A DNA stretch of 64,000 nucleotides from Gammaproteobacteria bacterium (GTDB taxonomy: Bacteria; Pseudomonadota; Gammaproteobacteria; Natronospirales; DASSBR01), in NCBI GenBank assembly GCA_035698525.1, contig DASSBR010000045.1, positions 2,290 to 66,289 of the forward strand, given 5' to 3'. Position 1 is the first letter of the stretch. Every line of letters starts with the position of its first letter. Made by a program: the position numbers and the translations under genes. Under the pieces are notes generated by a model, which was not told where the DNA came from, made no database searches, and saw nothing but the letters and a program-made list of their open reading frames with translations. Shown here piece after piece: positions 45,416 to 61,661 of the stretch.

Positions 45416-45442
45416 GACCCCTCTCCGGCCGGGAGAGGGGTC
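45416..45442. repeat. REP-like hairpin downstream of ftsZ
   Basis: gacccctctcc-ggccg-ggagaggggtc, an 11-bp perfect stem with the same CCCTCTCC/GGAGAGGG core as the other copies. Confidence 0.5.
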
Positions 45443-45465
45443 CGGGAGCACGAGTGAGACTGTCT

Positions 45466-46617
45466 TCAATCCGCCTGCCGCCGCAGGAATGCCGGAATGT
45501 CGAGGTAATCGGCATCCTTGTCCGGCAGGTCGGCCAGCCGATCGCCCACCGCCTTGCGGCGGATCACGGTCGGCTTGTCCAGCTCGGCGTAGTCGGCCTT
45601 TCCCGGCTTCGGCGGCACGATCTTGATCTTCGGCTCGACGGGCTTGTTGACCCGCATGTGGTGGCCGCCGAGCCCGGTGGCCACCACCGTGACGCGAATC
45701 TCCTTGCTCATCGCCGGGTCGATGACCGCGCCGACCACGACGGTCGCGTCGTCGGAGGCGAACTCCTTGACCGTGTTGCCGACTTCCTCGAACTCGCCGA
45801 TCGCCATGTCCATGCCGGCGGTGACGTTGACGAGGATGCCGCGCGCGCCGGCCAGGTTGACGTCTTCGAGCAGCGGGCTCGCGATGGCCGATTCGGCCGC
45901 CTCGCGGGCACGATCCTCGCCGGACGAAATGCCGGAGCCCATCATCGCCATGCCCATTTCGGACATGACCGTGCGCACGTCGGCGAAGTCGACGTTGATC
46001 AGGCCGGGCCGGGTGATCAGTTCGGCGATGCCCTGCACCGCGCCGAGCAGCACGTCGTTGGCGGACTTGAACGCGTCCAGCAGCGAGGTGCCGGCGCCCA
46101 GCACGGAGAGCAGCTTCTCGTTCGGGATCGTGATCAGCGAATCGACGTACTTGCCGAGTTCCTCGATACCCTGCTGCGCCACCTGCATGCGCTTGTTGCC
46201 CTCGAACGGGAACGGCTTGGTCACCACCGCGACGACCAGAATGCCCAGTTCCTTCGCCACCTGCGCGACCACGGGCGCCGCGCCGGTGCCGGTGCCGCCG
46301 CCCATGCCGGCGGTGATGAACACCATGTCGGAGCCTTCGATCACCTCGACGATCCGCTCGCGATCTTCCATCGCCGCCTGCCGGCCGACTTCCGGGTTGG
46401 CGCCCGCGCCAAGGCCCTTGGTCATGCTGCTGCCGATTTGCAGCGCCGTCTTGGCGTTGCTGTTCCGCAGCGCCTGGGCGTCGGTGTTCGCGCAGATGAA
46501 ATCCACGCCTTCGATACCGGTCGAGATCATGTGGCGCACGGCGTTGCCGCCGCCGCCGCCGACCCCGACGACCTTGATTACAGCGCTTTCGCTGTTGCCA
46601 TCCATTAATTCAAACAT
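45466..46617 (-). CDS. ftsZ: Cell division GTPase FtsZ
   Basis: [10 protein letters not shown], tubulin signature [11 protein letters not shown]-terminal [14 protein letters not shown]. Confidence 0.97.
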
Positions 46618-46662
46618 GGTGCTGTCTCCTCGTGCTCGCCTGCTCTGCCTGATGTAAAAAAA

Positions 46663-47898
46663 CTAAAAGTTGCCCTGGAACCACTGCTTCATCCGCTGCC
46701 ATACGTCCTTCACCCCTGACTTCATCGGTGGCGCCGCCGACCGCTGATGCGCGCTTTGCCCGCCAAACAGCAGGAGACCGACGCCCGTGGCGTGGATCGG
46801 GTTGCGAACCACGTCCACGAGGCCGGTCACGTGCTGAGGCACCCCTAAACGAACCGGCGCGTGGAATACTTCTTCCGCCAGCTCAACCGCCCCCTCCATC
46901 TTCGAGCTGCCGCCGGTCAATACGACGCCGGCGGCGATCATGTCCTCGAATCCGCTTCTGCGAAGCTCCGCCTGAATCAGGCTGAACAATTCCTCGTAGC
47001 GCGGCTCGACGACCTCGGCCAGTGTCTGTCGCGCCAGCCGCCTCGGCGGGCGCTCGCCGACACTCGGCACTTCAATGGTTTCATCGGCGCTCGCGAGCTG
47101 CGGCAGCGCGCAGGCGTACTTGAGCTTGATTTCCTCGGCGCAATGCGTCGGCGTCCGGAGCGCCACCGCGATGTCGTTGGTCACCTGGTCGCCGGCGATC
47201 GGAATGACTGCCGTGTGGCGAATCGAGCCGTCGGTAAAGATCGCGATGTCAGTGGTGCCGCCGCCGATATCGACCAGGCACACGCCCAGATCCTTTTCGT
47301 CCTCGGTCAGCACCGAATGGCTCGATGCCAGCTGTTCGAGGATGATGTCGTCGACTTCGAGCCCGCAGCGGCGCACACACTTGATGATGTTCTGCGCGGC
47401 GGAGAGCGCGCCGGTCACCATGTGAACCTTGGCTTCAAGCCGGACGCCCGACATGCCGATCGGCTCGCGCACGCCGTCCTGCTGGTCGATGATGAATTCC
47501 TGCGGCAGGATGTGAAGAATCTTCTGATCGGCCGGAATCGCCACCGCGCGCGCCGCGTCGATTACCCGGTCGATGTCGCCCTGCGTCACTTCCTTGTCGC
47601 GGATCGCGACGATGCCGTGCGAATTCAGGCTGCGCACGTGACTGCCGGCAATGCCGGCGTAAACCGAATGAATTTCGCAGCCTGCCATCAACTCGGCTTC
47701 CTCGACCGCGCGCTGGATCGACTGCACGGTCGACTCGATATTGACGACCACGCCTTTCTTCAGGCCGCGCGAAGGATGCGAACCGATGCCGATGATTTCG
47801 ATGCCACCGTCCGGCCGGATCTCTCCAACGATGGCGACCACCTTGGACGTGCCGATATCGAGACCGACGATCAGACGCTTCTCGGGTCTTTTAGGCAT
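46663..47898 (-). CDS. ftsA: Cell division protein FtsA
   Basis: LIVGLDIGTSKVVAIVGE, VDIGGGTTDIAIF. Start at MPKRPEK (47898); the track ORF extension overlaps ftsQ. Confidence 0.95.
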   Translation of the reverse strand: MPKRPEKRLIVGLDIGTSKVVAIVGEIRPDGGIEIIGIGSHPSRGLKKGVVVNIESTVQSIQRAVEEAELMAGCEIHSVYAGIAGSHVRSLNSHGIVAIRDKEVTQGDIDRVIDAARAVAIPADQKILHILPQEFIIDQQDGVREPIGMSGVRLEAKVHMVTGALSAAQNIIKCVRRCGLEVDDIILEQLASSHSVLTEDEKDLGVCLVDIGGGTTDIAIFTDGSIRHTAVIPIAGDQVTNDIAVALRTPTHCAEEIKLKYACALPQLASADETIEVPSVGERPPRRLARQTLAEVVEPRYEELFSLIQAELRRSGFEDMIAAGVVLTGGSSKMEGAVELAEEVFHAPVRLGVPQHVTGLVDVVRNPIHATGVGLLLFGGQSAHQRSAAPPMKSGVKDVWQRMKQWFQGNF

Positions 47899-48658
47899 GT
47901 GTCTTCCCCACCTTTTCAAAATTGGATTTCCAACCGACCGCGAAACCGTTGGTGTAGCGCAGGTCGATGTAAGCCGCTTCGGCAAGGCGCGCGCCCAGCA
48001 CGCGCGGCACGATTTCAACGAAGCGTTGTAAATTCCGCTCAACCTCGTCACGGCCGAGGCGCAAACTGAGGCCGCTGGCGAGCGTGGCACGCCAGGCGCC
48101 ACGCGCGTCCAGACTCAGACCGGCGAGCTTGAGCCCGTTTGTTCCGAGCCGCGCGCTCATCGTTCGCCAGCTCGCGAGTACGCGCTGCGCGCTGTCGGCG
48201 GGCCCTGAAAGATGCGGCAGGTCTTTCGTGTCGGCCGGTGCGACGCGCGTGAATTCGACGCCGTCCGCGTTAATCAGCCCGCTCCCGTCCCAGCGCGCCA
48301 CCGCACGCTGCTCGCGCAATTCGACCTTCAGCGTCGATGGCCATTCGAGCCGCACGGCCGCATCCGCGACCCACGGCAATGCGACAACAGCTTCGCGAAT
48401 CTCATCGAGGTCGACGCGAAAAAAGCCGCCATGCAGATACGGCTTGACCGCCGCCCGCACGTCTGCCGGATCGACGCGCCTGAAGTCGCCGCCGACGACC
48501 AGCTCCGTCAGGCTCGGCCCCCAGTCCGCATAGCGTGCCCACTGCCAGCCGACAAGGCCGACGGCAATCAGCGCGGCGGCCAGAACCGCGGCGAGGAAGT
48601 GCCGGATTCTGAGGCTCTTCACCTGCGGCTGATTGGTCTTGGCGCGTGGCTTCACCAT
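47891..48658 (-). CDS. ftsQ: Cell division protein FtsQ
   Basis: Single TM (FLAAVLAAALIAVGLVGW) followed by a POTRA domain (VADAAVRLEWPSTLKVELREQRAVARW). The ATG at 48658 abuts the ddl stop. Confidence 0.85.
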   Translation of the reverse strand: MVKPRAKTNQPQVKSLRIRHFLAAVLAAALIAVGLVGWQWARYADWGPSLTELVVGGDFRRVDPADVRAAVKPYLHGGFFRVDLDEIREAVVALPWVADAAVRLEWPSTLKVELREQRAVARWDGSGLINADGVEFTRVAPADTKDLPHLSGPADSAQRVLASWRTMSARLGTNGLKLAGLSLDARGAWRATLASGLSLRLGRDEVERNLQRFVEIVPRVLGARLAEAAYIDLRYTNGFAVGWKSNFEKVGKTHA

Positions 48659-49608
48659 CAAACCGCCCCCCGCTCGACAAAACTCGTCTCCAGAATCCGC
48701 CAGCACAGCGCGCCGAAGTCGATCCCGACCGCCTTCGCCGCCATCGGCACCAGACTGTGGCCGGTCATTCCGGGCACCGTATTGCCCTCGATCAGCCACG
48801 GCTGACCGTTGGCATCGAGGATGAAATCCATCCGCCCCCAGCCGCTGCCGCCGAAGGCCTCGAACGCCCGCAGGCACATCTCTCCAAGCTCGCGTTCCTG
48901 CGCCTCGGTCAATCCGCACGGGCAGAAGTAACGCGTGTCGTCGGAAAAATATTTCGCGTCATAGTCGTAAAAATCGTGCGGCGTCTCCATCCGCACGATC
49001 GGCAGCGCTTCGCCGTCGAGCACCGAGCAGAAGTATTCGCCGCCGGTGATCCAGCGTTCGGCTATGACCAACTCGTCGCGATCGCGTGCGCCGCGGTACG
49101 CGGCTTCGATATCTTCCTCGCGGGTCAAGTGCGTGACGCCAATGCTCGACCCTTCGCGGGCGGGCTTGACCGCGACCGGGCAGCCGACCAGCCCCACGAA
49201 CGCACGCAGTTCTTCAACGCTGCGAACCTGTGCATAGGCCGGCGTCGGCAAGCTGAGCGTCTGCCAGACCTGCTTGGTGCGCAGCTTGTCCATCGACAGC
49301 GCGGAGCCGAGTACGCCGCTGCCGGTGTAGGGAATGCCGATCAGTTCCAGCAGGCCCTGGATCGTGCCGTCTTCGCCGTCGCGGCCGTGCAGCATGATGC
49401 AGGCGCGGTCGAAGCCGCCGTTGATGAGTGCCATGACGCCGTCGTCTTGCGGATCGACCGGGTGCGCATCGATTCCCTGCTCGCGCAGCGCCGCAAGTAC
49501 GGCCTGGCCGCTTAGCAGCGAAATCTCGCGCTCGGCCGACGTCCCGCCCAGAACAACGGCGACGCGACCGAATTTGCGCGGATCCCGAATGGACTCAGTC
49601 ACCGTCAT
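48658..49608 (-). CDS. ddl: D-alanine--D-alanine ligase
   Basis: VAVVLGGTSAEREISLLSG, ATP-grasp, EGNTVPGMT. Confidence 0.93.
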   Translation of the reverse strand: MTVTESIRDPRKFGRVAVVLGGTSAEREISLLSGQAVLAALREQGIDAHPVDPQDDGVMALINGGFDRACIMLHGRDGEDGTIQGLLELIGIPYTGSGVLGSALSMDKLRTKQVWQTLSLPTPAYAQVRSVEELRAFVGLVGCPVAVKPAREGSSIGVTHLTREEDIEAAYRGARDRDELVIAERWITGGEYFCSVLDGEALPIVRMETPHDFYDYDAKYFSDDTRYFCPCGLTEAQERELGEMCLRAFEAFGGSGWGRMDFILDANGQPWLIEGNTVPGMTGHSLVPMAAKAVGIDFGALCWRILETSFVERGAV

Positions 49609-50513
49609 GCATCATCCTCCGCGCTGCCGATAATCCGCACTTCGGGCGTCAGCTCGACGCCGAATTTCGCCTTGACCTCGGCCTGCACCCTAAGCAGTAA
49701 CGTTTCGATATCCGCGGCGGTCGCGCCCCGGTCGTTCAAAATGAAATTCGCGTGCTTGTCGGAGACCACCGCACCGCCGACGCGCCGGCCCTTCAACCCG
49801 GCCGCCTCGATCAGCCGTGCGGCGTGATCGCCCGGCGGATTGCGGAAGACCGAGCCGCAGCTCGCCGCGGCCACCGGCTGAGTCGCGTTGCGCCGGGCCA
49901 GCAGCATCTTCACGCGCTCGCGACTCATGCCGGGGTCGGGCGAAAACCTGAACCGGCCCGCGAGGAACCATTCCTCCGCCGGCGCATGTACCGACCGGTA
50001 GCCGATCCTGAATTCCGCCGCCGGGCGAACCCGGATGGCGCCGTTGCGGTCGATCGTTTCAACCGCCTCGACCCGTTCCCAGGCCTCGCCGCCAAACGCA
50101 CCCGCATTCATGGCCAGCGCGCCGCCGATCGTGCCGGGAATGCCGGCGAAGAAATCGCCACCGGCCAGCCGCCAGTTGACGCAGTGGCGCGCGAGCTTGG
50201 CGCAGGGGACGCCGGCTTCGGCGCGCACGCGCCCGCGGCCGTCGTGCTCGATGGCCGAGAGCGCGCCGTGCGTCGCGATCACCGTCCCGGGGAGGCCGCC
50301 GTCGCGCACCAGCAAGTTGCTCCCGAGGCCCACCCAGTGAATCGGCTCGTCGATCGGCAGCGTGACGAGGAAGTTGATCAGGTCGTCGCGGTCTGCCGGC
50401 TTGAACCAGCGTTGCGCGCGGCCGCCGGCGCACCACGACGTGTGCTTCGCCATCGGCTCGTTCTCGCGCAGCAGCCCACGAATTTCCATGTTGGTGCGCT
50501 TTGCGGCGATCAC
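49605..50513 (-). CDS. murB: UDP-N-acetylenolpyruvoylglucosamine reductase
   Basis: FAD-binding [37 protein letters not shown]. Confidence 0.9.
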
Positions 50514-51919
50514 GATGCACGCTCCACGCCGAGCCGTTCGGGCAGCGTCGCCGCCACCGACCCGATGTCGCCCGCGCCCAGTGTCAGCACCACGTCGCCA
50601 TCGGCGATGACTGCCGCCAGCGCCTCCGGCACGTCGCTACTGGCGGCGACGAACACAGGATCGACCTTGCCGCGATTGCGGATGGAGCGCGCCAGCGCCC
50701 GCGAATCGGCGCCGGCGATCGGCTGCTCGCCGGCCGGGTAAACCTCCGTCAGCAGCAGCACGTCGACCTCCGCCAGCACTTCGGAAAAGTCCTCGAACAG
50801 ATCGTGCGTGCGGGTGTAGCGATGCGGCTGAAACACCACCACCAGGCGGCGGCCGGGCCAGCCGTCGCGTACTGCCGCGAGGGTCGCGCGAATTTCACGC
50901 GGATGATGGCCATAGTCGTCCAGCGCGAGCACGGTGCCGTGCGCGGTGGCGATGTCGCCATAATTCTGCAGCCGCCGGCCGATGCCTTCGAAGCGCGCCA
51001 GCGCGGTGGCGATGGCCGCGTCCGGCACATCCAGCTCGCGCGCGATCGCGATGGCCGCGAGCGCGTTGGACACGTTGTGACGGCCGGGGAGATTCAACGT
51101 CACCGGCAGCGGATCGCGGTCGCGGAATCGCACCTCGAAGCGGGTTCGCGTGCCGTCGCTCGCGAGATCGGCCGCGCGCACGTCGGCGTCGGTCTCCAGC
51201 CCGTAGGACACGATCGGACGGCTCACTTCCGGCAGCAGCGCGCGCACTTCGGGATCGTCGAGGCACAGCACTGCCAGACCGTAAAACGGCAGGTGATGCA
51301 GGAATTCGAGAAAGCTCGCGCGCAGCCGGTTGAAGTCGTGGCCGTAAGCGCCGAGGTGATCGGCGTCGATGTTGGTAACCACCGCCATCATCGGTTGCAG
51401 GTGCAGGAACGAGGCGTCGCTTTCGTCCGCTTCGGCGACGAGGTAACGGCCCGCTCCCAGCCGCGCGTTGGCGCCGGCGCTGGTGAGCCGGCCGCCGATC
51501 ACGAACGTCGGGTCGAGCCCCGCTTCGGCGAGAATGCTGGCGACCAGGCTCGTCGTCGTCGTCTTGCCATGAGTGCCGGCGACGGCGATCCCCTGCCGGA
51601 AACGCATCAATTCGGCGAGCATCTCCGCGCGGCGCACCAGCGGAATGCGGCGCTCGCGCGCGGCGGCGGCTTCGGGATTGTCCGTTCCGATCGCGGTCGA
51701 CGTGACAACGCAGTCGGCCTCGACGACATTCGCGGCATCATGGCCGAGAGCGACCTTCACGCCCAGCGACTGCAGGCGTCGCGTGGCCGCGTTGGTGGAC
51801 TGATCGGAGCCCGACACCTCGTAGCCGAGGTTGTGCAGCACCTCGGCGATGCCGCTCATGCCGACACCGCCGATGCCGATAAGATGGATATGCTGGATGC
51901 GGCCCATGCGATCTTTCAT
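50510..51919 (-). CDS. murC: UDP-N-acetylmuramate--L-alanine ligase
   Basis: [30 protein letters not shown]. Start at MKDRMGRIQ (51919), an ATGA overlap with the murG stop. Confidence 0.93.
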
Positions 51920-52995
51920 GCCGCCTCCTTCGCCGCGTCGAGGCAGGCTTGCGCCAGGTCGCGCGCCGCGTTCGGACGTGCGAACGTTCGCGCGGCCTCG
52001 GCCATGCACTGCAAACGCGGACGGTCGCTGCACAGTTCGCGCAGCATTGCGGCAAGCGCCTCGGCCGTCAGCGTCTGCTGCGCCATGATGACAGCCGCGC
52101 CGCGCCCGGCGAGGTGCTCGGCATTGCGCGTCTGGTGGTCGTCGACGGCGGCGGCGAATGGCACCAGCACCGCACCGAGGCCGGCGGCCGCCAGTTCGGC
52201 GATAGTCAATGCGCCGGCGCGGCAGACGGCGAGGTCGGCCCAGCCGTAGGCGGCGGCGACATCGTCGACGAAAGCCTCGACACGCGCCTCGACGCCCGCC
52301 TCGTCATAAGCGGCAGCAGCCCTGTCTAAATGGCGCTCCCCGGCCTGATGCCAGACCTCGGGCCGTGCGTCCGCAGGCAGCATCGCGAGCGCTTTCGGTA
52401 AGGTCTCGTTCAGAATGGACGCACCCTGGCTGCCGCCGAAGATCAGCAGCCGCACCCGTCCGGCGCGGCCGGCAAAGCGTTCGGACGGCGCGGGCATTGC
52501 CGCGACCGTGGTGCGCACCGGATTGCCTACGCAGCGCGCGCGGCGGCCTGGCGGGAAGCTGCCCGGAAAGCCTTCGAGGACGGTCGTTGCGAAACGTGCC
52601 AGCACACGATTGGTCATGCCCGGCACGGCGTTCTGCTCGTGAATAACGAGCGGCCGGCGCGAGAGCCAGGCCGCGATGCCGCCGGGGCCGCTGGCGAAGC
52701 CGCCCATGCCCAGCGCCACTGCCGGGCGCAACTTGCGCACGATCGACAATGCGCCGGAAAGCGCGCGCCCCAAGTTCAGCGGCGCGCCGAGGCGCGTCGC
52801 CCAGCCCTTGCCGCGCAATCCGCCCACGCCGATCCAGTGGATCGGGATGCCGGCAGCCGGGACCAGCCGCGCTTCGAGGCCGCGGCGCGTGCCCATCCAG
52901 GCGATTTCGCAACCGTCGCGGCGGAGTTCTTCGGCGGCTGCGAGAGCCGGGAAGACGTGCCCGCCGGTTCCTCCAGCCATGATCAGCACTCTCAT
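51916..52995 (-). CDS. murG: Lipid II-forming UDP-GlcNAc transferase MurG
   Basis: [24 protein letters not shown]. The ATG at 52995 overlaps the ftsW stop. The 799-aa track ORF is an upstream open-frame artefact. Confidence 0.93.
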
Positions 52996-54185
52996 GACCT
53001 GGCTCCGCGTTTGCGCGCCGTCGCCGGCCGCCCCACCGACTCGCATTCCCGCTGCACGCGCAAAATCAACGCCACCGACGCTGCAGTGACGATGACGCTG
53101 CTGCCGCCATAACTCATCAGCGGCAAGGTCAACCCCTTGGTCGGCAGCACGCCCATGTTGACGCCGATATTGATGAACGCCTGCAGCCCAATCCACAGGC
53201 CGAGGCCGCAGGCGATGAAAGCGCCGAAATCCTTGCCCTGACGTGCAGCCGTGCGGCCGATGGCGAACGCGCGCCAGGTGATACCGAGGTACAGGCCGAT
53301 GACGGCGACCGCGCCGATGACGCCCAGTTCTTCGGAAATGACGGCGAACAGGAAATCGGTATACGCCTCCGGCAGGTAAAACAGTTTTTGCACGCTTTCG
53401 CCGAGGCCGACGCCAAACCAGCCGCCGCGGCCGATGGCGATCAGCGACTGCGTGAGCTGAAAGCCGTCGTTGAACGGGTCGGCCCACGGGTTCAGGAACG
53501 CGGTCAGCCGGTCCATGCGGTAGGGCGACGACCAGGCCAGCACCGCGAGCGCGGCAAGCACCAGCAACAGCAGCAGCGTGAAGTGCCGGAGCCTCAGGCC
53601 CGCGAGGAACATCATCGCCAGCGCCGTCGCCATCATGACCGCCGCGGCACCGAAGTCCGGTTCCATGAGCAGCAGGAACGCGGCGCACACCAGCACCGAC
53701 ATCGGCTTCAGAAAACCGACGAAGCTGCGGATGTCGTCGCGGCGATGCACGAGATAGCCGGCGAGATATACGAAGATCAACAACCGCGCCGGCTCGGAGG
53801 CCTGCCCGCCAAACGGGCCGATGTCGATCCAGCGCATGCTGCCGTTGACGCTGCGGCCGATGCCGGGGACCAGCACCAGCATGAGCAGCGCGATTGCACC
53901 GACCAGCATCAGGAAGCGCGAACGTTCCCACCACGCGAGCGGCAGTTCGTAAACGACGAAGGCCGCGACCAGGGCCAGCACGACGTACACCGCCTGGCGT
54001 TGCATGAAATAGAACGGCTGACCGACGTCGCGCGCCGCCAGCGCAATCGACGCCGAACCGACCATCACCACGCCGAGCAACAGCAACGTCAGCGCCATGC
54101 CGGCGAGCCAGGCGTCCGGCATCGGCCGGCGCGCGCCGCCGGCGACCGCGCGCTGCCGGCTCCCGGCCTGCAGGATGGCGGCCAT
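52992..54185 (-). CDS. ftsW: Lipid II flippase / peptidoglycan glycosyltransferase FtsW (SEDS)
   Basis: 10-TM SEDS protein. PEAYTDFLFAVISEELG, LPTKGLTLPLMSYGGSS. The start at 54185 abuts the murD stop. Confidence 0.9.
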   Translation of the reverse strand: MAAILQAGSRQRAVAGGARRPMPDAWLAGMALTLLLLGVVMVGSASIALAARDVGQPFYFMQRQAVYVVLALVAAFVVYELPLAWWERSRFLMLVGAIALLMLVLVPGIGRSVNGSMRWIDIGPFGGQASEPARLLIFVYLAGYLVHRRDDIRSFVGFLKPMSVLVCAAFLLLMEPDFGAAAVMMATALAMMFLAGLRLRHFTLLLLLVLAALAVLAWSSPYRMDRLTAFLNPWADPFNDGFQLTQSLIAIGRGGWFGVGLGESVQKLFYLPEAYTDFLFAVISEELGVIGAVAVIGLYLGITWRAFAIGRTAARQGKDFGAFIACGLGLWIGLQAFINIGVNMGVLPTKGLTLPLMSYGGSSVIVTAASVALILRVQRECESVGRPATARKRGARS

Positions 54186-55534
54186 CAGGCGGCGAGCCTC
54201 CGCACGGCGGCGACAAATGCGTCGCCCCGCGCTTCGTAACTGGCGAACATGTCGAAGCTGGCGCACGCGGGCGCCAGCAGTACCCAGTCGCCCGGCCGGG
54301 CCAGCGCGGCAGCACGGGTCACGGCGTCTTCCATGCCCGCGGCGTGTTCGTATGGCACGAGGTCTTCGAGCGCGGCGGCGATGCGGTCGGCATCGCGGCC
54401 GATCAGCACCACGGCGCGCGCGCGGCCGGCGAGCGCCCGGGCGAAGTCGGCGAACTCCTGGCCCTTGCCGTCGCCGCCGGCGATCACGACCAGCGGCGCG
54501 TCCGCACCGACGATCGCCGCGACCGCCGCGCCGACATTGGTGGCCTTGGAATCGTCATACCAGGCGACACCGCCCGCCTCAGTCACGAAGCGCATGCGAT
54601 GCGGCAAGCCGCGGAAGTCGACGAGAATGTCGATCATCGCCTCGCGCGGCAGATCGACCGCCTCGCCGAGGGCCAGCGCCGCCAGTGCATTGGCATGGTT
54701 GTGCCGGCCGCGAATCTTGAGTTCGGCGGTCGGCATGATTTTTTCGGAGCCGCGCGCGAGCCATCCGCCGGTGTCGGTTTCGATGATGCCGTATTCGTCG
54801 GCCGCCGGCGCGCCGAGACCGAAGCGGATAGTCCGGCGCTTCGATTCCGCCATCGCCAAAACGCGCGAATCGTCGCGATTGACGACGCTGACCGCGGCGT
54901 CGTAATAGATGCGCGCCTTGGCGGCGGCGTATTCGTCGACATTGCGATAGCGGTCGAGATGATCCGGCGTCACGTTCAGCACCACCGCTGCCGCGAGCGG
55001 CAAGCGGTCCGTCGTTTCAAGCTGAAAGCTCGACAGTTCCAGCACGTACAGATCGGGCTCCGCTTCTTCCAGCAAATCGAGCACGGGCGTGCCGATATTG
55101 CCGCCGAAGCGCACGTCGCGGCCGGCGCGCTCCGCCATCAGCCCGAGCAGCGTTGTGACGGTGCTCTTGCCGTTGGTGCCGGTGATACCGACCACCGGCG
55201 CGCGGGCTTCGCGGGCAAACAATTCAACGTCGCCGCAGACTGGCAGACCGAGCGCGCGCGCCCGCAGAATGAACGGCTCCTGGGAAGACACGCCCGGCGA
55301 GACAATCACGAAATCGGCATTGGCGAGCGCATCGGGCGAATAGCCGCCGACAAACAGCGCCACATCCGGCAGTTCAGCCTTGAGTGCGGCCAGTGCCGGC
55401 GGTTCGGCGCGATTGTCGGTCACAGCCACGGCATAGCCGCGCCGCGCCAGGAAGCGCGCGCTGGCCAACCCGGTCTTGCCGAGACCGATGATCAAGCCTT
55501 TTTTCCGCGCCTGTTGCAATGCCGCCTCCATCAC
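54185..55534 (-). CDS. murD: UDP-N-acetylmuramoylalanine--D-glutamate ligase
   Basis: [29 protein letters not shown]. Confidence 0.93.
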
Positions 55535-56613
55535 CGAATCTTGAGCGTCGAGAGCCCCACCAGTACCAGGATCACCGTGATGATCCAGAAACGTACAATC
55601 ACCTTGGGCTCGGCCCAGCCCTTGAGCTCGAAATGGTGATGCAGCGGCGCCATCCTGAAGATGCGTTTTCCGGTCAGCTTGTAAGAGCCGACCTGCAGAA
55701 TCACCGAGAAGGTTTCCATGACGAACACGCCGCCCATGATGAACAGCACCAGCTCCTGGCGGACGATGACGGCGAGCAGGCCGATCGCCGCGCCAAGCGC
55801 GAGCGAGCCGATATCACCCATGAAGACTTGCGCCGGATAGGTGTTGAACCACAGGAAGCCGAGACCCGCGCCGACGATCGCGCCGCAAAAGACGACGACT
55901 TCGCCCGCGCCGCGGATGTAAGGAATTTCGAGGTATCGGGCGAACAGCACGTTGCCGGCCGCGTAGGCAAACACCCCGAGCGCTGCGGTAATCAGCACCG
56001 CCGGCATGATCGCGAGGCCGTCGAGGCCGTCGGTCAGGTTGACCGCGTTGCTGCTGCCGACGACCACGAAGTAAACCACCGGAATATAAAGCGCGCCGAG
56101 CGCGACGTGGATCTGCTTGAAGAACGGCACGATCAACTGCGTCTCGGCCGGCGTGCTCGCCGAATAGTACAGTGCGATCGCGAGCCCAAGCGCCGCAATC
56201 GACTGCATCATATATTTGCTTTTCGCCGGCAGGCCGCGGGAATTCTTGAAGGCGAGCTTCAGGTAATCGTCGACGCCGCCGATCAGGCCGAACATGACCG
56301 TCACGCAAATCAGCGCCCACACGTAGCGGCTGGACAGATCCGCCCACAACAGCGTGCCCAGCGCGACCGAGAGCAAAATCAGGCTGCCGCCCATCGTCGG
56401 CGTGCCGGTCTTCGCAAGGTGCGATTGCGGCCCAAGTTCGCGGACGTGCTGGCCGATCTGGTAAAGGCCAAGGCGGCGTATGAAGGCGGGGCCGGCGAAC
56501 AACGACAGCGCCAGCGCCGTCAGCGCGCCGAGGATCGTCCGTACCGTCAGGTACCGGAATACATGAAAGCCGCTGTGGAACTGCGTGAGATAGTCGGCCA
56601 GATACAACAACAT
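55531..56613 (-). CDS. mraY: Phospho-N-acetylmuramoyl-pentapeptide transferase
   Basis: [49 protein letters not shown]. Start at 56613. Confidence 0.95.
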
Positions 56614-56775
56614 GTCAGTGGCCCTCCCCGCCAATACCTTGCGGTCTCGCCGCGTCTTGCCGCGCCTGTCTGCGTTGCAGCTCCTCGCCATAGCTACGGC
56701 TATGACTCGTCGCCGCGCCTTGCCAGCCACGCCAATACGCAGCCGAGCCCATCAAGTTATTGGCGCAGAGGGCCA

Positions 56776-58281
56776 CTAGTGTTCCTCCAGCCAGGCTCGA
56801 ACCGCTTTGCGGTCGTCGAACGGGCGGTGCTCGTCACCGACGATTTGCGCCGTCTCGTGACCCTTGCCCGCGACCAGCACGACGTCGCCGGCTTGCGCTT
56901 CGGCCAGCGCGCTGGCGATCGCGTCGCGCCGGTCGTGCTCGACGCGAACGGCGGCGCCAGCCGGAAAGCCGGTGAGAATGCCCGCCACGATGGCGGCGGG
57001 ATCTTCATGACGTGGGTTGTCGTCGGTGATCACGCAGGTATCGGCATGCCGCGCCGCGACCGCGCCCATCAGCCGGCGTTTGCCGCGATCGCGGTCGCCA
57101 CCACAGCCGAACACCACGATCACCCGACCGGTCGCATGCTCGCGCGCGGCGGCGAGCGCCTTTTCGAGCGCGTCCGGCGTGTGCGCGTAGTCAACCAGCG
57201 CCAGCGGCTGGTCGCCGCCGCCGAAGGGTTCCATGCGCCCACTCGCGGCGCGCGCGCCGCCCAGTACACGCACCGACGCGTCGTACGGCTTGCCGAGCGC
57301 CAGCAGCGCCCCCACCACCGCAAGCAGGTTCGAGGCGTTGAACGTGCCGATTACCGGGCTTGTCACCGTGGCGCGGCCCCAGTCGCCATCGATCTCGAGT
57401 TCGATTCCGCGGGTCGTCGCGCGCACCGTGCGGGCGCTGAGCAGCATGCACGACGGCGGGGACTTTTTGCCGTCGAGCGTGTAGCCGATGGCGGTCACGC
57501 CAGGAGCCAGGCGGTTCATCAGCACGGCGGCGAACGGATCGTCGAGATTGATCACGGCTGCGCTCAGGCCGGGCCACGTGAACAGCCGCGCCTTGGCCTC
57601 GCCGTAAGCCATCTGGCTGCCGTGATAGTCGAGATGGTCGCGCGTCAGGTTGGTGAACACGGCGACGCGAAAGCCGACCGCTTCGAGCCGGCCCTGGTCG
57701 AGGCCGTGGGACGAGGCTTCCATGGCGACAGCGGCGGCGCCCTCGTCGCGGAACTTCGCCAGCAACCGCTGCACGGTCACCGCGTCGGGCGTCGTCATGC
57801 CGGTAGACGACAACTGCGACGGCCAGCCCGAGCCAAGCGTGCCGATCACGCCGGTGGGTGCGGAGAGTTGAGACAGCGCTTCGGCCAGCATGACCACGGT
57901 GGTGGATTTGCCGTTGGTGCCGGTGACGCCGACGACGTCCAGCGCCGCCGATGGTTCGCCGTAAAAGCGACCCGCTATCTGACTCGCGCGCCGGGCGAGA
58001 TCGGGCACTTCAATTGCGGCGACGCGGCCAGGCAGGCCGGGAGCGACGCCGGCCTCCGGTTCCCAGGCGATAGCGGCCGCGCCACGCGCGATGGCGATGT
58101 CGGCGAACTCCAAGCCATGATGCTGCGTGCCGCGACAGGCGAGGAACAAACCACCCGGGACCACCTGCCGGCTGTCCAGTGTGACGCCGGCGATGGGCCG
58201 GTCAGCACCGACAGGCACGGCGCCGAGACCTTCGAGCAGTTCGCCGAGCCAGACGGTACGAGACATTGTCGGCGCCACCAT
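56776..58281 (-). CDS. murE: UDP-MurNAc-L-Ala-D-Glu--2,6-diaminopimelate ligase
   Basis: MurE-specific motifs MEASSHGLDQGRL, FTNLTRDHLDYHG, VDYAHTPDALEKAL, GCGGDRDRGKRRLMG, TDDNPRHEDP, GKGHE. The ATG at 58281 abuts the ftsI stop (alternative ATG at 58266). Confidence 0.9.
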   Translation of the reverse strand: MVAPTMSRTVWLGELLEGLGAVPVGADRPIAGVTLDSRQVVPGGLFLACRGTQHHGLEFADIAIARGAAAIAWEPEAGVAPGLPGRVAAIEVPDLARRASQIAGRFYGEPSAALDVVGVTGTNGKSTTVVMLAEALSQLSAPTGVIGTLGSGWPSQLSSTGMTTPDAVTVQRLLAKFRDEGAAAVAMEASSHGLDQGRLEAVGFRVAVFTNLTRDHLDYHGSQMAYGEAKARLFTWPGLSAAVINLDDPFAAVLMNRLAPGVTAIGYTLDGKKSPPSCMLLSARTVRATTRGIELEIDGDWGRATVTSPVIGTFNASNLLAVVGALLALGKPYDASVRVLGGARAASGRMEPFGGGDQPLALVDYAHTPDALEKALAAAREHATGRVIVVFGCGGDRDRGKRRLMGAVAARHADTCVITDDNPRHEDPAAIVAGILTGFPAGAAVRVEHDRRDAIASALAEAQAGDVVLVAGKGHETAQIVGDEHRPFDDRKAVRAWLEEH

Positions 58282-59999
58282 CAAGACGTATGCCCCAGGT
58301 GCACCACGGCAGCCGTGGTCTCGCCCGAAATGTCGTCCGGCGGCACGTCGAGAATCCGCATCGCACCGGACATGACTTCCGCGAACACCGGGGCGGCGAC
58401 CAGGCCGCCGTAATAGTCGCCCTTGCTCGGGTCGTTCATGATCACACACGCAACCAGACGCGGTTGCTCTGCCGGAATCATGCCGCAAAACACGCCGGTG
58501 TAATCGTCCGCCGAATAGCCGCCGTCGACCGCCTTGTGCGAGGTGCCGGTCTTGCCGGAAACGCGGTAGTTCGGCACTTCGGCAAGCGTGCCGGTGCCCG
58601 GATCGGTGACGACGGTTTCGAGCATCATGCGCAGGTTGTCGGCGACGTTCTCGGGCATGACGCGACGCCCGGGCGGCGGGTTCTCAAGGCGCAAAAACGA
58701 GATCGGACGCAAAATGCCGCCGGTTGCGATAGCGGCATAAGCGCGCGTGAGCTGCAGCGCGGTGACGGACACGCCGTAGCCGTATGATACTGCCGCCTGC
58801 CCCGCGCGATGCCAGTCGCGGTACGGGCGCAGCACGCCGGTGCGCTCGCCGGGAAAGCCGCTGCCGGTGTAATGTCCGAAACCGAGCGCGTGATACGTTT
58901 TCCACATGTGCTTCGGCGTCAGCGACAGCGCGATTTTGCTCGCGCCTACGTTGCTCGACTTTTCGAGCAACGTCGTCAGCGTGATAAGGCCGTAGTCGCG
59001 GTGATCACTGATCGTGTAACCGTCGACGACAATCCAGCCGGGCGTCGTATCGACCGTGCTTGCAGGCGTATAGCGATCGGTTTCGAGCGCGGCGGCAATC
59101 GTGAACGGCTTGAAGCTCGAACCGGGTTCAAACACGTCCGTCACCGCGCGGTTGCGATACAGTGCCGCATGAAAATCATTGCGGTTGTTCGGGTTGAAGG
59201 CCGGCTGGTTCGCCATCGCGATGACTTCGCCGGTGTTCGGATCGAGCACAACGATCGAACCGGACTTCGCGCCCTGCTTCTCGACTTCGGCCTTGAGATC
59301 GCGGTAGGCGAGATACTGGATTCGCAGGTCGATGCTGGTGGTGAGGTTGCGGCCCGGCTTCGGATCGCGGAGGCTCGCAACCTCCTGGATTATGTGCCCA
59401 AGCCGGTCGCGAATCACGCGTTCGGCGCCCGGCTTGCCGTGCAGCCAGTCGTTGTACGCCAGCTCCAGCCCTTCCTGGCCGATATCGTCTATGTTGGTGA
59501 AGCCGAGCACGTGCGACACCACTTCGCCGGCCGGGTAGTAACGGCGGTATTCGTGTTCGACGTGGATGCCTTCGAGGTTGAGCGCCAGCACCTTGCGCGC
59601 ATCGGCGGGGCTCATGTCGCGGTTCAGGTAAACGAACTGGCGATCGGGATGCGTCGTGACGGCCTTGCGCACCGCGGCTGCAGGGATATTGAGCGCGTTC
59701 GCCAACTCGCCAATTTGATCCGTCGCGGTGAAATCCTGCGGATTGACCCAGATCGAATCCACCGGCGTACTGACGGCGAGCGGACGGCCGTTGCGGTCGG
59801 TAATCATGCCGCGGTGCGCGGGAATTGGCACCACGCGTAAATGCCGCATCGCGCCCTGGTCGAGCAGAAACGCGTTATTGAAAATTTCCAGGCTGAACGC
59901 GCGCCACGCGAGTCCGGCCGCAACCAGCACGAAACCCGCGACGACGACCACGCCGCGCCACCCGGTGCCCGGCATCGTTGCGGTGCTCTCCCCGCTCAT
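58281..59999 (-). CDS. ftsI: Peptidoglycan D,D-transpeptidase FtsI (PBP3)
   Basis: N-terminal TM, SSFKP (SxxK), SSN, KTGT motifs. Confidence 0.93.
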   Translation of the reverse strand: MSGESTATMPGTGWRGVVVVAGFVLVAAGLAWRAFSLEIFNNAFLLDQGAMRHLRVVPIPAHRGMITDRNGRPLAVSTPVDSIWVNPQDFTATDQIGELANALNIPAAAVRKAVTTHPDRQFVYLNRDMSPADARKVLALNLEGIHVEHEYRRYYPAGEVVSHVLGFTNIDDIGQEGLELAYNDWLHGKPGAERVIRDRLGHIIQEVASLRDPKPGRNLTTSIDLRIQYLAYRDLKAEVEKQGAKSGSIVVLDPNTGEVIAMANQPAFNPNNRNDFHAALYRNRAVTDVFEPGSSFKPFTIAAALETDRYTPASTVDTTPGWIVVDGYTISDHRDYGLITLTTLLEKSSNVGASKIALSLTPKHMWKTYHALGFGHYTGSGFPGERTGVLRPYRDWHRAGQAAVSYGYGVSVTALQLTRAYAAIATGGILRPISFLRLENPPPGRRVMPENVADNLRMMLETVVTDPGTGTLAEVPNYRVSGKTGTSHKAVDGGYSADDYTGVFCGMIPAEQPRLVACVIMNDPSKGDYYGGLVAAPVFAEVMSGAMRILDVPPDDISGETTAAVVHLGHTS

Positions 60000-60265
60000 G
60001 GTTTCACCACCACGCGCTGGATTTTTTGCGGCACGTGCATGTCGAGCTTTTCACGCGCAACCTGCTGGATGCGCGCGTGCGTCGCCCAGGTGCTTTCCTC
60101 GAGCTGCAGCCGGCCCCATTCAACGTTCAGCTTGTCGCGCTGCTGGCGCAACTGCTGCAGTTGTGCGAACAACGTGCGGTTGCGCCACACGGTATGCACG
60201 ACCCCGAGCGCCGATACGACCAGCGCCAGCGCCAACGCCGCGTTGATGAGCATGGAGGCCTTCAT
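59996..60265 (-). CDS. ftsL: Cell division protein FtsL
   Basis: 89 aa. [20 protein letters not shown] plus a coiled coil ([25 protein letters not shown]). ATGA overlaps on both sides. Confidence 0.8.
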
Positions 60266-61212
60266 GCACGCTTCTCCACGACGCGCAACCGCGCGCTGCG
60301 GGCGCGCGGATTGGCCGCCAGCTCCGCCGCGCCCGGCGTCACGGCCTTCAGCGGCCGGGCAAAAACCGGCGGCACGAAATGATGCGCACCAAGTCCTCGC
60401 GGCGCGTCCGGCGCTGCCCTGGCCTTGGCGCGCATGAAGCGCTTGACGATGCGATCCTCGAGAGAATGAAACGTAATGACGCACAACCGCCCGCCGCCTG
60501 CCAGCACGCGCGGCGTCTGCTCGAGCACATCGCGCAACTCGTCCAGTTCGCGATTAATGAAAATCCGGATAGCCTGAAACGCCCGCGTGGCGGGATGCTT
60601 GTTGCGTTCGCGCGTCGGTACGGCGCGGGCGACCAGCGCGGCCAGTTCAGCAGTGTCTTCGATGGGCTTTTCGAGCCGCGTCTGGCAGACGGCGCGGGCA
60701 ATGCGGCGAGCAAAACGCTCCTCGCCGTAGTCACGAATGACTTCGGTGATTTCATCTTCCGGCGCGCGCGCGAGCCATTCGGCGGCGGATTCGCCGGTGG
60801 AGGGATCCATCCGCATGTCGAGCGGACCGGCGGCGCGGAAGCTGAAGCCGCGGGCGGAGTCGTCGAACTGCGGCGACGAGACACCAAGGTCGAGCAGAAT
60901 ACCGTCGACCTGTCCCGCCACGCCCATGTTCCCTGCCATCCGCTCGAGCATCGTGAATGCTCCGTGAAACGCCGTCACGCGTTGATCCTGTTCAGCCAGT
61001 TGCCGGGCGGCGATCAGCGCCTCCGGATCCTTGTCGATAACCAGCAAACGCCCGTTCGCCCCGAGTTGCGCCAGAATGGCGCGACTATGGCCGCCGCGAC
61101 CGAAGGTGCCATCGACATAGACACCGTCGGAACGGATTTGAAGCGCGGCGACAGACTCGTCAAGCAGGACCGGCGCATGTTCCCCTGGTTGGTCATGCCG
61201 CCGCTCATTCAA
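60262..61212 (-). CDS. rsmH: 16S rRNA (cytosine1402-N4)-methyltransferase
   Basis: [45 protein letters not shown]. Confidence 0.95.
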
Positions 61213-61661
61213 AGCGACAACCGGGCCAGTTCTTCCGGCAGCGACTCATCCTCGTCGGCTTCGTCAATCCAGACGTCGCGGCGTTCGGTCCACGTGTCTT
61301 CGTCCCACAGCTCAAACTTGTTGCCCTGTCCGATCAGCACCACGCGGCGATCGAGCGACGCGAATTCGCGCAGCGGCGCGGGCAGCAGCACCCGGCCATG
61401 GCTGTCGAGTTCGAGATCCGTCGCGTGACCCATCAACAGGCGCTGCAGTCGCCGCGACTGTTTATTCAGGCCCGATAATCTGACAAGCTTTTGCTCGAGT
61501 TCTTCCCAATCCGGCAGGGGGTAAAGCAACAGGCAGCGGTCGTAGTCGACGGTGATGACCATTTGGCCCGCGCAGCGTTGGGCAAGACCATCCCGATAGC
61601 GAGTCGGAATCGCCAGTCGCCCTTTGGCATCCAATGCCAGGGTATTGACGCCGCGCAACAT
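61209..61661 (-). CDS. mraZ: Transcriptional regulator MraZ
   Basis: [23 protein letters not shown] and a second SpoVT-AbrB-like repeat [15 protein letters not shown]. Confidence 0.95.

What the first reader, a model, noticed from the sequence alone, without database searches (positions are those of the whole stretch)
56614..56775. murF is missing from its canonical slot between murE and mraY in an otherwise complete dcw cluster
The cluster reads mraZ-rsmH-ftsL-ftsI-murE-[162 bp]-mraY-murD-ftsW-murG-murC-murB-ddl-ftsQ-ftsA-ftsZ-lpxC. Nearly every junction is a 1-4 nt overlap.
The single ligase gene between ftsI and mraY is clearly MurE (DNPR, TNLTRDHLDYHG, DYAHTPDAL motifs), not MurF or a MurE-MurF fusion (501 aa).
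murE-murF-mraY adjacency is one of the most conserved arrangements in Proteobacteria, and MurF is essential for adding D-Ala-D-Ala.
The 162-bp spacer contains a short minus-strand ORF ([45 protein letters not shown]). Its TGA lies 1 nt before the mraY ATG. It could be a relic of a deleted murF whose coupling to mraY was retained; that reading is speculative.
Basis: partly seen in the sequence, partly recalled or inferred. Interest (0 to 1): 0.55.

Follow-up and report, generated by a model that had tools for sequence, protein, structure and literature searches.

The report
Hairpin insert where murF long gone
The cell-wall gene murF is absent from its usual place between murE and mraY, but this is an old trait shared by a whole group of uncultured soil Gammaproteobacteria. 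The 162-base spacer is a long hairpin-forming insertion found only in this genome, not a leftover of murF.

Summary
On the minus strand, murE (58281..56776, a MurE by NCBIfam) is followed by 162 bp and then mraY (56613..55531). No fourth Mur ligase lies anywhere in the 64-kb window.

The interpretation does not hold. Seven other assemblies of the same clade (MurE 59-77% identical) place the murE stop 0-2 nt from the mraY start. murF therefore left this slot before the clade diversified, and misassembly is implausible. At least four other gammaproteobacterial lineages show the same murE-mraY adjacency.

The spacer has no similarity to MurF. It is one imperfect palindrome: 62 base pairs, RNA energy -110 kcal/mol, z = -9.6, with 25-nt terminal inverted repeats. 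Removing 161 nt restores the relatives' junction (CAC TGA C ATG). The small ORF is a read-through of this insert that ends at the ancestral murE stop codon, and it lacks coding composition.

I found no second copy in the window, related loci, JGI metagenomes, plasmids, E. coli genomes or 5.8 billion proteins. The insert resembles ERIC/YPAL-type hairpin elements in form only.

The stem buries the mraY ribosome-binding site. Modelling suggests a ribosome terminating on murE frees it.

Where murF now sits could not be determined. Overall this is ordinary gene-order variation plus an orphan hairpin insertion.

The parts
56776..58281 (-). murE (UDP-MurNAc-L-Ala-D-Glu:meso-DAP ligase), 501 aa. NCBI annotates 496 aa from the internal Met (HET6725408.1). 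The stop codon is TAG at 56778..56776.
   Evidence: NCBIfam TIGR01085 scores 499 bits (cutoff 257) and NF001124 scores 495 (cutoff 476); the MurF model is below its cutoff. P0001 is 100% identical.
56616..56778 (-). Long imperfect hairpin (palindromic insert). It has 62 base pairs (38 G-C, 17 A-U, 7 G-U). Its first base is the T of the murE TAG and its last paired base is the G of the TGA before mraY. Relative to clade relatives the insert is 161 nt (56618..56778, or equivalently 56617..56777).
   Evidence: The sense RNA folds at -110 kcal/mol with z = -9.63; the antisense RNA at -78 with z = -5.26; as DNA z = -9.27. The insert is absent from 7 clade relatives.
56753..56777 (-). 5' terminal inverted repeat of the element (sense strand AGTGGCCCTCTGCGCCAATAACTTG).
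   Evidence: the repeat finder pair I1, 25 nt, 88% complementary. The pattern matches twice in the window against 0.03 expected.
56617..56641 (-). 3' terminal inverted repeat of the element (sense strand CAAGGTATTGGCGGGGAGGGCCACT). It contains the mraY Shine-Dalgarno sequence.
56623..56627 (-). mraY Shine-Dalgarno GGAGG, 9 nt upstream of the ATG, buried in the basal helix of the hairpin.
   Evidence: Sequence. The probability of being unpaired is 0.001 in free mRNA and rises to 0.2-0.4 when 9-15 nt after the murE stop are held single-stranded.
56615..56617 (-). TGA that ends the small ORF, inferred to be the ancestral murE stop codon. It lies 1 nt before the mraY ATG.
   Evidence: Junction comparison with L001, L103, L104, L102 and L099.
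56615..56776 (-). 53-codon ORF across the element, judged non-coding.
   Evidence: GC at codon positions 1/2/3 is 0.67/0.61/0.69, against 0.61-0.74/0.40-0.53/0.81-0.84 in murE, mraY and murD. There is no NCBIfam hit, no homologue among 5.8 billion proteins at E <= 10, and no counterpart in relatives.
55531..56613 (-). mraY, 360 aa, starting at ATG 56613 (MLLYLADYL...).
   Evidence: TIGR00445 scores 436 bits (cutoff 192). The N-terminus aligns with relatives from residue 1.
44289..61661 (-). dcw cluster mraZ-rsmH-ftsL-ftsI-murE-mraY-murD-ftsW-murG-murC-murB-ddl-ftsQ-ftsA-ftsZ-lpxC, without murF.
   Evidence: NCBIfam scans. There is no fourth Mur ligase in the window.

Best explanation

1. Old event. 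In the ancestor of a clade of uncultured soil Gammaproteobacteria, murF left the dcw cluster. On a rough MurE tree this clade is sister to a Steroidobacteraceae-like group. After murF left, murE became directly coupled to mraY (stop codon, 0-2 nt, start codon). murF is presumed to lie elsewhere in these genomes; that is inferred, not shown.

2. Recent event. On the branch leading to this genome only, a 161-nt imperfect palindrome was inserted between the last sense codon of murE and its stop codon. The insert's first bases supply a new in-frame stop for murE (CAC|TAG), so MurE keeps its length. The old TGA-C-ATG junction now sits at the 3' foot of the hairpin. The 53-codon ORF is an accidental read-through of the insert.

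In the polycistronic dcw mRNA the insert folds into a 62-bp stem. The base of that stem brings the murE stop codon next to the mraY ribosome-binding site and buries the site.

My proposed mechanism is an inference from thermodynamic modelling. A ribosome terminating at the murE UAG melts the basal helix and frees the mraY Shine-Dalgarno sequence. Translational coupling would then survive the 162-nt separation, which would explain why the insertion is tolerated inside an essential operon. Effects on mRNA processing or stability, as described for ERIC and Correia hairpins, are possible but untested.

In architecture the element belongs with bacterial MITE-like hairpin repeats. No second copy was found, so mobility is not shown.
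For: Slot empty across the clade:
- L001 (MurE 77% identical), L103 (76%), L104 (74%), L099 (68%), L100/L101 (66%), a JGI contig (63%) and L102 (59%) all have mraY starting 0-2 nt after murE.
- None has a fourth Mur ligase within 10 kb.
- These come from independent assemblies and pipelines (NCBI TPA MAGs, ENA, JGI, Logan).
- The clade is monophyletic in a neighbour-joining MurE tree and the window is nested inside it.

Insertion:
- The alignment with L001 shows one clean gap of about 160 nt.
- The MurE C-termini have equal length (PFDDRKAVRAWLEEH* against PFDDREVVRSLLRGC*).
- The relatives' junction stop-N-ATG/GTG is recovered by deleting 161 nt.

Hairpin:
- Folding energy is -110 kcal/mol, z = -9.63, and no shuffle did as well.
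- The terminal inverted repeats are 25 nt.
- The palindrome is imperfect (about 12% mismatch in the arms), which argues against an assembly fold-back.

Not MurF: HMM scores are negative in all six frames.

Not coding: codon-position GC is flat and there are no protein homologues.

Strand asymmetry:
- The sense RNA is 32 kcal/mol more stable than the antisense RNA.
- There are 7 G-U pairs and no A-C mismatches.
- All eight 1x1 mismatches are purine-purine.

Coupling model: the Shine-Dalgarno unpaired probability is 0.001 in free mRNA and 0.2-0.4 with a ribosome footprint on the murE stop.

Context:
- The same window holds two other long intergenic hairpins of about 105-125 nt with different sequences.
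- Relative L100 carries a 299-nt structured spacer at another dcw junction.
- Comparable elements and their effects on mRNA are reviewed in PMC2229807.
Against: - No second copy of the element was found anywhere, so membership of a repeated or mobile family is not shown. Places searched: the window, 106 related loci, JGI metagenome contigs by inverted-repeat pattern (18 single-arm chance hits), plasmids and E. coli genomes, Rfam and 5.8 billion proteins.
- Only 64 kb of this genome could be read.
- There is no clean target-site duplication. There is only an 11-nt imperfect direct repeat, GGAGGAACACT / GGAGGGCCACT (9 of 11 matching), whose second copy lies inside the stem.
- The hairpin is a singleton, so there is no covariation evidence for a selected RNA structure.
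- The strand asymmetry could reflect base composition or mutation bias.
- The coupling mechanism rests on folding predictions alone.
- murF was not located for any clade member, despite a homologue search, a representative search and cluster look-ups.
Confidence: 0.7

Rival explanations
1. The spacer is a relic of a deleted murF. It would keep the murF start (coupled to murE) and the murF end (coupled to mraY).
For: - The GTG overlaps the murE TAG, and the TGA lies 1 nt before the mraY ATG.
- The ORF ends in ...GGEGH*, which loosely recalls MurF C-termini such as ...ANGGH* or ...EGHRH* in relatives. That similarity is what a Shine-Dalgarno sequence embedded in the last codons would produce anyway.
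Against: - An HMM of 54 MurF sequences gives negative scores in all six frames.
- All seven other clade members have a 0-2 nt junction. With the window nested in the clade, a relic would need at least four independent precise deletions.
- A relic of two unrelated gene ends has no reason to be a 62-bp self-complementary stem.
- The TGA-C-ATG junction matches the murE-mraY junction of relatives.
Confidence: 0.03
2. The palindrome arose locally, for example by template switching or inverted duplication at the murE-mraY junction. On this view it was not inserted as a pre-existing repeat or mobile element.
For: - It is a sequence singleton in everything searched.
- The murE 3' end (GGAGGAACACT) and the element's 3' end (GGAGGGCCACT) are near-identical.
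- The element's 5' end is the inverted complement of both, with a local palindrome centred on CT|AG (pair I4).
Against: - The inner roughly 140 nt match nothing else in the window, so no local template is visible.
- The arms have diverged by about 12% with indels, which fits an older element better than a fresh duplication.
- The genome carries other long intergenic hairpins.
Confidence: 0.2
3. The hairpin is a selected cis-regulatory RNA, such as an RNase III or RNase E processing site, an mRNA stabiliser or an attenuator. It would set the ratio of murE-side to mraY-side expression, rather than being a tolerated neutral insertion.
For: - The sense strand folds 32 kcal/mol better than the antisense strand.
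- There are 7 G-U pairs, no A-C mismatches, and only purine-purine mismatches including tandem G-A.
- The mraY Shine-Dalgarno sequence is fully sequestered.
- ERIC and Correia hairpins are reported to affect the stability of flanking mRNA (PMC2229807).
Against: - It is present in one genome only, and seven relatives do without it.
- There is no covariation and no Rfam family.
- There is no U-tract, so it is not an intrinsic terminator.
- Of the other two hairpins in the window, one is more stable on the antisense strand, so orientation bias is not general.
Confidence: 0.15
4. The 53-codon ORF encodes a real small protein, translationally coupled to murE and mraY.
For: It is an open frame with the start overlapping the murE stop and the stop adjacent to the mraY start.
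Against: - Codon-position GC is flat, unlike the neighbouring genes.
- There is no family hit and no homologue at E <= 10.
- It is absent in all relatives.
- The opposite strand has an equally long ORF (55 aa) simply because the DNA is palindromic.
Confidence: 0.04
5. This is an assembly artefact: either murF was collapsed out, or the hairpin is a chimeric fold-back.
For: The source is a short-read metagenome-assembled genome (NCBI 'MAG TPA').
Against: - The same murE-mraY adjacency appears in eight independent assemblies from different projects.
- The palindrome is imperfect, with bulges, and neither arm copies flanking sequence, unlike fold-back artefacts.
Confidence: 0.02

Closest known systems
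YPAL / RU-2 palindromic repeats of Yersinia (168 bp), as summarised in PMC2229807
   Same: Similar size (161-165 nt against 168). It is not A+T-rich, has no TA termini, and folds into one long stem-loop. It sits between co-transcribed genes. YPAL target duplications vary from 3 to 26 bp and lie at or next to dyad symmetry. That resembles the 11-nt imperfect repeat and local palindrome at this site.
   Different: There is no sequence similarity to anything in E. coli genomes or plasmids. No second copy is known. The host lineage is different. The duplication is imperfect and overlaps the stem.
ERIC / IRU (127 bp) and Correia / NEMIS (about 107-155 bp) hairpin elements
   Same: These are non-coding imperfect palindromes of 100-200 bp with terminal inverted repeats. 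They are co-transcribed with flanking genes. Their RNA stem-loops are reported to influence mRNA stability or RNase III/E processing (PMC2229807).
   Different: Those families are multi-copy, mostly A+T-rich, and flanked by TA. This element is 65% G+C, has no TA duplication, and is a singleton in all data searched.
Canonical proteobacterial dcw cluster (mraZ-rsmH-ftsL-ftsI-murE-murF-mraY-...), and MurE-MurF fusions (PMC10214165)
   Same: All other genes are present in canonical order with overlapping junctions. By E-value the best hit of MurE is the MurE half of the fusion model.
   Different: murF is absent from the slot. This is also true in at least four other gammaproteobacterial lineages: L015; L032 with L057 and L061; L060; and L016. 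The protein is not a fusion (501 aa, covering positions 26-498 of 965).
Translational coupling through melting of an inhibitory mRNA helix by the upstream ribosome (a classical mechanism; from general knowledge, not tested here)
   Same: The downstream Shine-Dalgarno sequence is sequestered in a helix whose other strand lies within the footprint of a ribosome terminating on the upstream gene.
   Different: Here the two strands are 150 nt apart and belong to an inserted palindrome. There is no experimental evidence.

Membership tests
MurE (TIGR01085 / NF001124) | Whole-protein score above the curated cutoff, with full-length coverage | tested here: met
   499 bits against a cutoff of 257.3, and 495 against 476, covering residues 26-500.
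MurE (meso-DAP type) | DNPR motif in the C-terminal domain (knowledge-based marker of DAP-adding MurE) | tested here: met
   DDNPRHED is present in the translation.
MurF (TIGR01143) | Score above the cutoff for any ORF in the window | tested here: not met
   The best score is MurE at 99.6 bits against a cutoff of 288.6. The MurF HMM gives at most 87 bits in the window against 570-860 for true MurF.
MurF remnant in the spacer | Any frame of 56614-56775 aligns to a MurF profile | tested here: not met
   hmmsearch with --max against six frames gives scores of -2.9 and -3.2.
MurE-MurF fusion (NF008896) | About 950 aa covering both halves, with a score of at least 1023 | tested here: not met
   521 bits, covering profile positions 26-498 of 965 only.
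Bacterial MITE-like hairpin repeats (ERIC, Correia, YPAL, RPE class) | Size about 100-200 bp, with no protein-coding capacity | tested here: met
   The insert is 161 nt. The ORF lacks coding signature and homologues.
Bacterial MITE-like hairpin repeats | Terminal inverted repeats and a long stable stem-loop | tested here: met
   25-nt inverted repeats at 88% complementarity; 62 bp, -110 kcal/mol, z = -9.6.
Bacterial MITE-like hairpin repeats | Filled site against empty site in related genomes | tested here: met
   Seven clade relatives have the empty junction.
Bacterial MITE-like hairpin repeats | Multiple copies in the genome or in relatives | tested here: not met
   There is no second copy in the 64-kb window, 106 loci, JGI metagenomes, plasmids, E. 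coli genomes or the protein database.
Bacterial MITE-like hairpin repeats | Target-site duplication | tested here: inconclusive
   There is only an imperfect 11-nt direct repeat, GGAGGAACACT / GGAGGGCCACT (9 of 11), and its second copy is part of the stem.
Bacterial MITE-like hairpin repeats | A cognate transposase or IS with matching inverted repeats | not testable with these tools
   This needs the complete genome.
Intrinsic terminator | G+C-rich stem followed directly by a U-tract | tested here: not met
   No terminator-like site was called at the hairpin. The stem is followed by GACAUGUUGUUG.
Any Rfam 15 family | A hit at or near the gathering score | tested here: not met
   The best hit is 16 bits against a gathering score of 40, and it lies outside the hairpin.

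The most novel reading that the evidence does not exclude
The whole clade (MurE at least 59% identical to this one) may have no canonical murF anywhere in its genomes. The D-Ala-D-Ala addition step would then be carried out by a non-orthologous or highly divergent ligase. My searches found no murF within 10 kb of the cluster in eight assemblies, none in this 64-kb window, and none attributable to the clade in two database searches. This reading is therefore not excluded, though those searches were poorly suited to find a relocated copy. A weaker novel reading is that the hairpin is a purpose-built device that gates mraY translation on murE termination.
Probability: 0.03. Interest if true: 0.85.

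Novelty: new member of a known kind. Interest (0 to 1): 0.3.

Why it matters
The murE-murF-mraY order is often used as an argument for assembly-driven constraint on Mur gene order (PMC10214165). This work shows a whole family-level clade of soil Gammaproteobacteria, and at least four further lineages, in which murF has left the cluster and murE is directly coupled to mraY. That is a modest but real counter-example, and a warning for annotation pipelines that flag murF as "missing".

The hairpin shows that a tightly coupled essential operon can accept a 161-nt insertion when the insert's own geometry keeps the upstream stop and the downstream start side by side. If the coupling model were confirmed, it would be a clear natural example of an inserted palindrome that preserves, or gates, translational coupling.

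Neither point changes current understanding of peptidoglycan synthesis.

Tried and rejected
- **Locating murF.**
  - phmmer and an HMM found nothing over the window or over every locus lacking murF in the slot.
  - A homologue search with the MurF of the nearest in-slot outgroup (L030) returned only Steroidobacteraceae-like proteins at 72% identity or above.
  - The representative search returned about 150 clusters at 40-58% identity. Cluster look-ups of the ten best were Chromatiales, Salinisphaera, Spiribacter and Algiphilus. None had an accession near HET6725408.
  - The top representative's cluster (P0394) proved to be an ordinary in-slot murF (L105).
- **Exact look-up of the window's own proteins.** MurE, MraY and P0001 are not indexed, so the remaining 94 kb of the source contig could not be read.
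- **Second copies of the element.**
  - blastn against the window and loci found nothing.
  - The inverted-repeat pattern scan of JGI metagenomes gave 18 hits. All were single-arm, with no partner arm within 300 nt, so I treat them as chance.
  - A six-frame peptide search found nothing.
  - Plasmids and E. coli genomes gave no match.
  - Rfam gave no match.
- **An apparent 'SRS...GGH*' resemblance** between the ORF and MurF C-termini. I rejected it after the HMM test. The shared Gly/Glu-His-stop reflects a Shine-Dalgarno sequence embedded in the last codons.
- **Hairpins as a general feature of murF-less junctions.** The gaps in L016 (56 nt), L032 (113 nt) and L060 (272 nt) show no comparable single hairpin.
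- **Literature searches** for reports of murF outside the dcw cluster returned nothing useful.
- **Promoter or terminator inside the spacer.** None was found.

Full report
**1. Observation**

The dcw cluster lies on the minus strand. NCBIfam scans identify mraZ, rsmH, ftsL, ftsI, murE, mraY, murD, ftsW, murG, murC, murB, ddl, ftsQ, ftsA, ftsZ and lpxC in that order between 61661 and 44289.

The only ligase between ftsI and mraY (58281..56776, 501 aa) passes the MurE models. TIGR01085 scores 499 bits against a cutoff of 257, and NF001124 scores 495 against 476. It fails MurF (99.6 against 288.6). It matches only the MurE half (positions 26-498 of 965) of the MurE-MurF fusion model.

murE ends with TAG at 56778..56776 and mraY starts at ATG 56613 (MLLYLADYL...). 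The spacer is therefore 56614..56775, 162 bp, as reported.

The minus-strand ORF exists. It has 53 codons from a GTG that overlaps the TAG by one base, and its TGA lies one base before the mraY ATG.

No fourth Mur ligase occurs anywhere in the 64-kb window.

**2. How unusual is the empty slot?**

A scan of GTDB species representatives with the window's MurE returned 80 loci. In 73 of them both murE and mraY were visible.
- 66 have 1.35-1.6 kb between the two genes, filled by a MurF scoring 570-860 bits.
- 7 have a gap of -3 to 272 nt and no MurF within 10 kb.

The closest relative by far, L001 (MurE 77% identical; all others 54% or less), is one of the seven.

A homologue search then showed that the window's MurE is NCBI protein HET6725408.1. 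It comes from a "MAG TPA Gammaproteobacteria" contig of 157,982 nt. The search also revealed a graded series of relatives at 76, 74, 68, 66, 66, 64, 63 and 59% identity before a plateau at 55% or less.

I retrieved contigs for six of these: L103, L104, L099, L100/L101, a JGI contig and L102. In every one, mraY starts 0-2 nt after the murE stop and the rest of the cluster is canonical.

In a neighbour-joining MurE tree these sequences and the window form one clade, with the window nested inside. The clade is sister to L015 plus a Steroidobacteraceae-like group that keeps murF in the slot.

The other loci without murF in the slot fall in at least four separate places in the tree:
- L015;
- L032 with L057 and L061, which look Coxiellaceae-like;
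- L060, a Methylotetracoccus MAG next to a Methylococcaceae locus that has murF;
- L016, a Chromatiaceae MAG next to Thiococcus and Thioalkalicoccus loci that have murF.

So the empty slot is real. Eight independent assemblies agree, which rules out a local misassembly. It is old, and it has arisen repeatedly in Gammaproteobacteria.

**3. What the 162-bp spacer is**

Aligning the window junction with L001 gives a single clean gap of about 160 nt.

The MurE C-termini are the same length (…PFDDRKAVRAWLEEH* against …PFDDREVVRSLLRGC*). The relatives' junctions read TGC TGA C GTG (L001, L103), CGC TAA C ATG (L104), CGC TGA T ATG (L102) and CAA TAA G GTG (L099).

Deleting 161 nt from the window (minus-strand TAGTGGCCC…GGGCCAC) gives CAC TGA C ATG, the same layout. 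Two conclusions follow.
- The TGA one base before mraY is the ancestral murE stop.
- The present TAG was created by the first bases of the insert.

The insert is a single imperfect palindrome.
- Its terminal arms are 56753-56777 and 56617-56641 (25 nt, 88% complementary).
- The arm pattern occurs twice in the window against 0.03 expected.
- The whole sequence folds into one stem of 62 pairs: 38 G-C, 17 A-U and 7 G-U.
- As sense-strand RNA the energy is -110 kcal/mol (z = -9.63; no shuffle folded as well). As antisense RNA it is -78 kcal/mol (z = -5.26). As DNA z = -9.27.
- All eight 1x1 mismatches are purine-purine. There are two tandem G-A/G-A loops near the tip, and no A-C mismatches.

This asymmetry favours the mRNA strand. 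With a single sequence, however, I cannot separate selection from base-composition or mutation bias.

The arms differ by about 12% and contain bulges, and neither arm copies flanking DNA. That is not what a fold-back assembly artefact looks like.

**4. Not a murF relic and not a gene**

An HMM built from 54 in-slot MurF proteins of relatives gives negative scores against all six frames of the spacer. A visual resemblance of the ORF's end (…GGEGH*) to some MurF ends (…ANGGH*, …EGHRH*) has a simpler cause. A Shine-Dalgarno sequence for mraY is embedded in the last codons of whichever gene precedes it.

The window is nested in a clade whose other members have the compact junction. A relic would therefore need at least four independent precise deletions, whereas an insertion needs one event.

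The ORF has flat GC across codon positions (0.67/0.61/0.69). Its neighbours show 0.81-0.84 at the third position and 0.40-0.53 at the second. It has no family hit. No protein among 5.8 billion matches any of its six-frame translations at E <= 10. The opposite strand carries an equally long ORF simply because the DNA is palindromic.

**5. Is it a member of a repeat family?**

In architecture it fits the bacterial MITE-like hairpin class reviewed in PMC2229807. That class has these features: 100-200 bp, terminal inverted repeats, a long stem-loop, placement between co-transcribed genes, and filled against empty sites among relatives.

It is closest in style to YPAL/RU-2, which is 168 bp, not A+T-rich, lacks TA ends, and has variable target duplications at dyad-symmetric targets. 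At the insertion point there is an 11-nt imperfect direct repeat, GGAGGAACACT…GGAGGGCCACT (9 of 11 matching), and a local palindrome (pair I4). The second copy of the repeat is part of the stem, so I do not call it a target duplication.

I found no second copy in any of these:
- the window;
- 106 loci;
- JGI metagenome contigs, where 18 hits to the 18-specified-base arm pattern all lacked a partner arm;
- plasmids and E. coli genomes;
- Rfam.

Two observations make an insertion of this general kind unsurprising here.
- The window has two other long intergenic hairpins with unrelated sequences, at 62003-62108 and 11087-11210 (z about -8 to -9).
- Relative L100 has a 299-nt structured spacer between ftsW and murG.

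**6. How it probably works**

This section is inference. The hairpin lacks a U-tract and was not called as a terminator, and no promoter-like site lies in it. Transcription should therefore read through.

The stem's first base is the U of the murE UAG. Its 3' foot contains the mraY Shine-Dalgarno GGAGG (56627-56623), 9 nt before the AUG.

In the free mRNA the probability that this site is unpaired is 0.001. Holding 9-15 nt downstream of the stop single-stranded, as a terminating ribosome would, raises it to 0.2-0.4.

I therefore propose that mraY translation depends on ribosomes finishing murE. The palindrome folds the 162 nt out of the way and keeps the stop and start codons adjacent in space. 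That would explain why the insertion is tolerated in an essential, tightly coupled operon. Effects on mRNA stability or RNase processing, as reported for ERIC and Correia elements, are possible.

**7. What remains open**

I could not find where murF lies in this clade. The exact-sequence index does not hold the window's assembly.

The cluster encodes Ddl, MraY and every other step. I therefore expect a relocated murF elsewhere in the genome. The alternative, no canonical MurF at all, is not excluded but is unlikely (about 3%).

**8. Verdict**

The "relic of a recent murF deletion" interpretation is rejected.

What is there is an ancient, clade-wide and recurrent gene-order variant, plus a genome-specific orphan hairpin insertion that recreated the murE stop and left the ancestral stop/start junction at its foot. 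Interest is modest at 0.3: a new member of known kinds, with a testable coupling mechanism.

Noticed in passing
window 62003-62108 (intergenic, upstream of mraZ): A second long hairpin with 25-nt arms (96% complementary) around a smaller internal stem. The minus-strand RNA folds at -71.6 kcal/mol (z = -8.3). Its sequence is unrelated to the murE-mraY element. It could be a terminator or REP-like element between the maf/rlmH operon and the dcw promoter region.
   Followed up: partly
window 11087-11210 (intergenic between two plus-strand genes): A third long palindrome, built from GGGAGAGGG/CCCTCTCCC hairpins plus GGGTGAGGG/CCCTCACCC arms. It folds at -77.6 kcal/mol on the plus strand and -90.5 on the minus strand (z about -8.4 to -9.0). 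It resembles REP-type repeats common in soil proteobacteria.
   Followed up: partly
L102 10283-12648 (Logan SRR33769964 contig, clade member with MurE 59% identical): In this relative murC is followed directly by ddl, so murB is also missing from its usual slot. A second Mur-pathway gene has therefore left the cluster in one branch of the clade.
   Followed up: no
L100 15133-15432 (GCA_973789685.1); also the JGI 3300048101 contig at 14837-15109: A spacer of about 270-300 nt lies between ftsW and murG in two clade relatives, where the window has an overlap. The L100 spacer folds into a large inverted-repeat structure (-162.5 kcal/mol, z = -2.3). Other dcw junctions in this clade have therefore also taken insertions.
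   Followed up: partly
L015, L016, L032, L057, L060, L061 (murE-mraY junctions): Six further gammaproteobacterial loci lack murF between murE and mraY. They include Coxiellaceae-like, Methylotetracoccus and Chromatiaceae MAGs. Their junctions range from a 4-nt overlap to 272 nt, and they fall in at least four separate places on a MurE tree.
   Followed up: partly
window 20500-31500: A lower-GC stretch (0.50-0.57 against about 0.65 elsewhere) encodes polysaccharide-synthesis genes. These are several GT4 glycosyltransferases, a methyltransferase, a Wzx-like flippase, a radical-SAM/pyruvyl-transferase fusion and an acyltransferase. pilB- and pilC-like genes follow at 31.5-34.5 kb. This may be a horizontally acquired surface-polysaccharide island.
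   Followed up: partly
window 17519-19624 (+): A 702-codon open frame with gene-like third-position GC (0.72) has no Pfam hit at E <= 1e-5.
   Followed up: no
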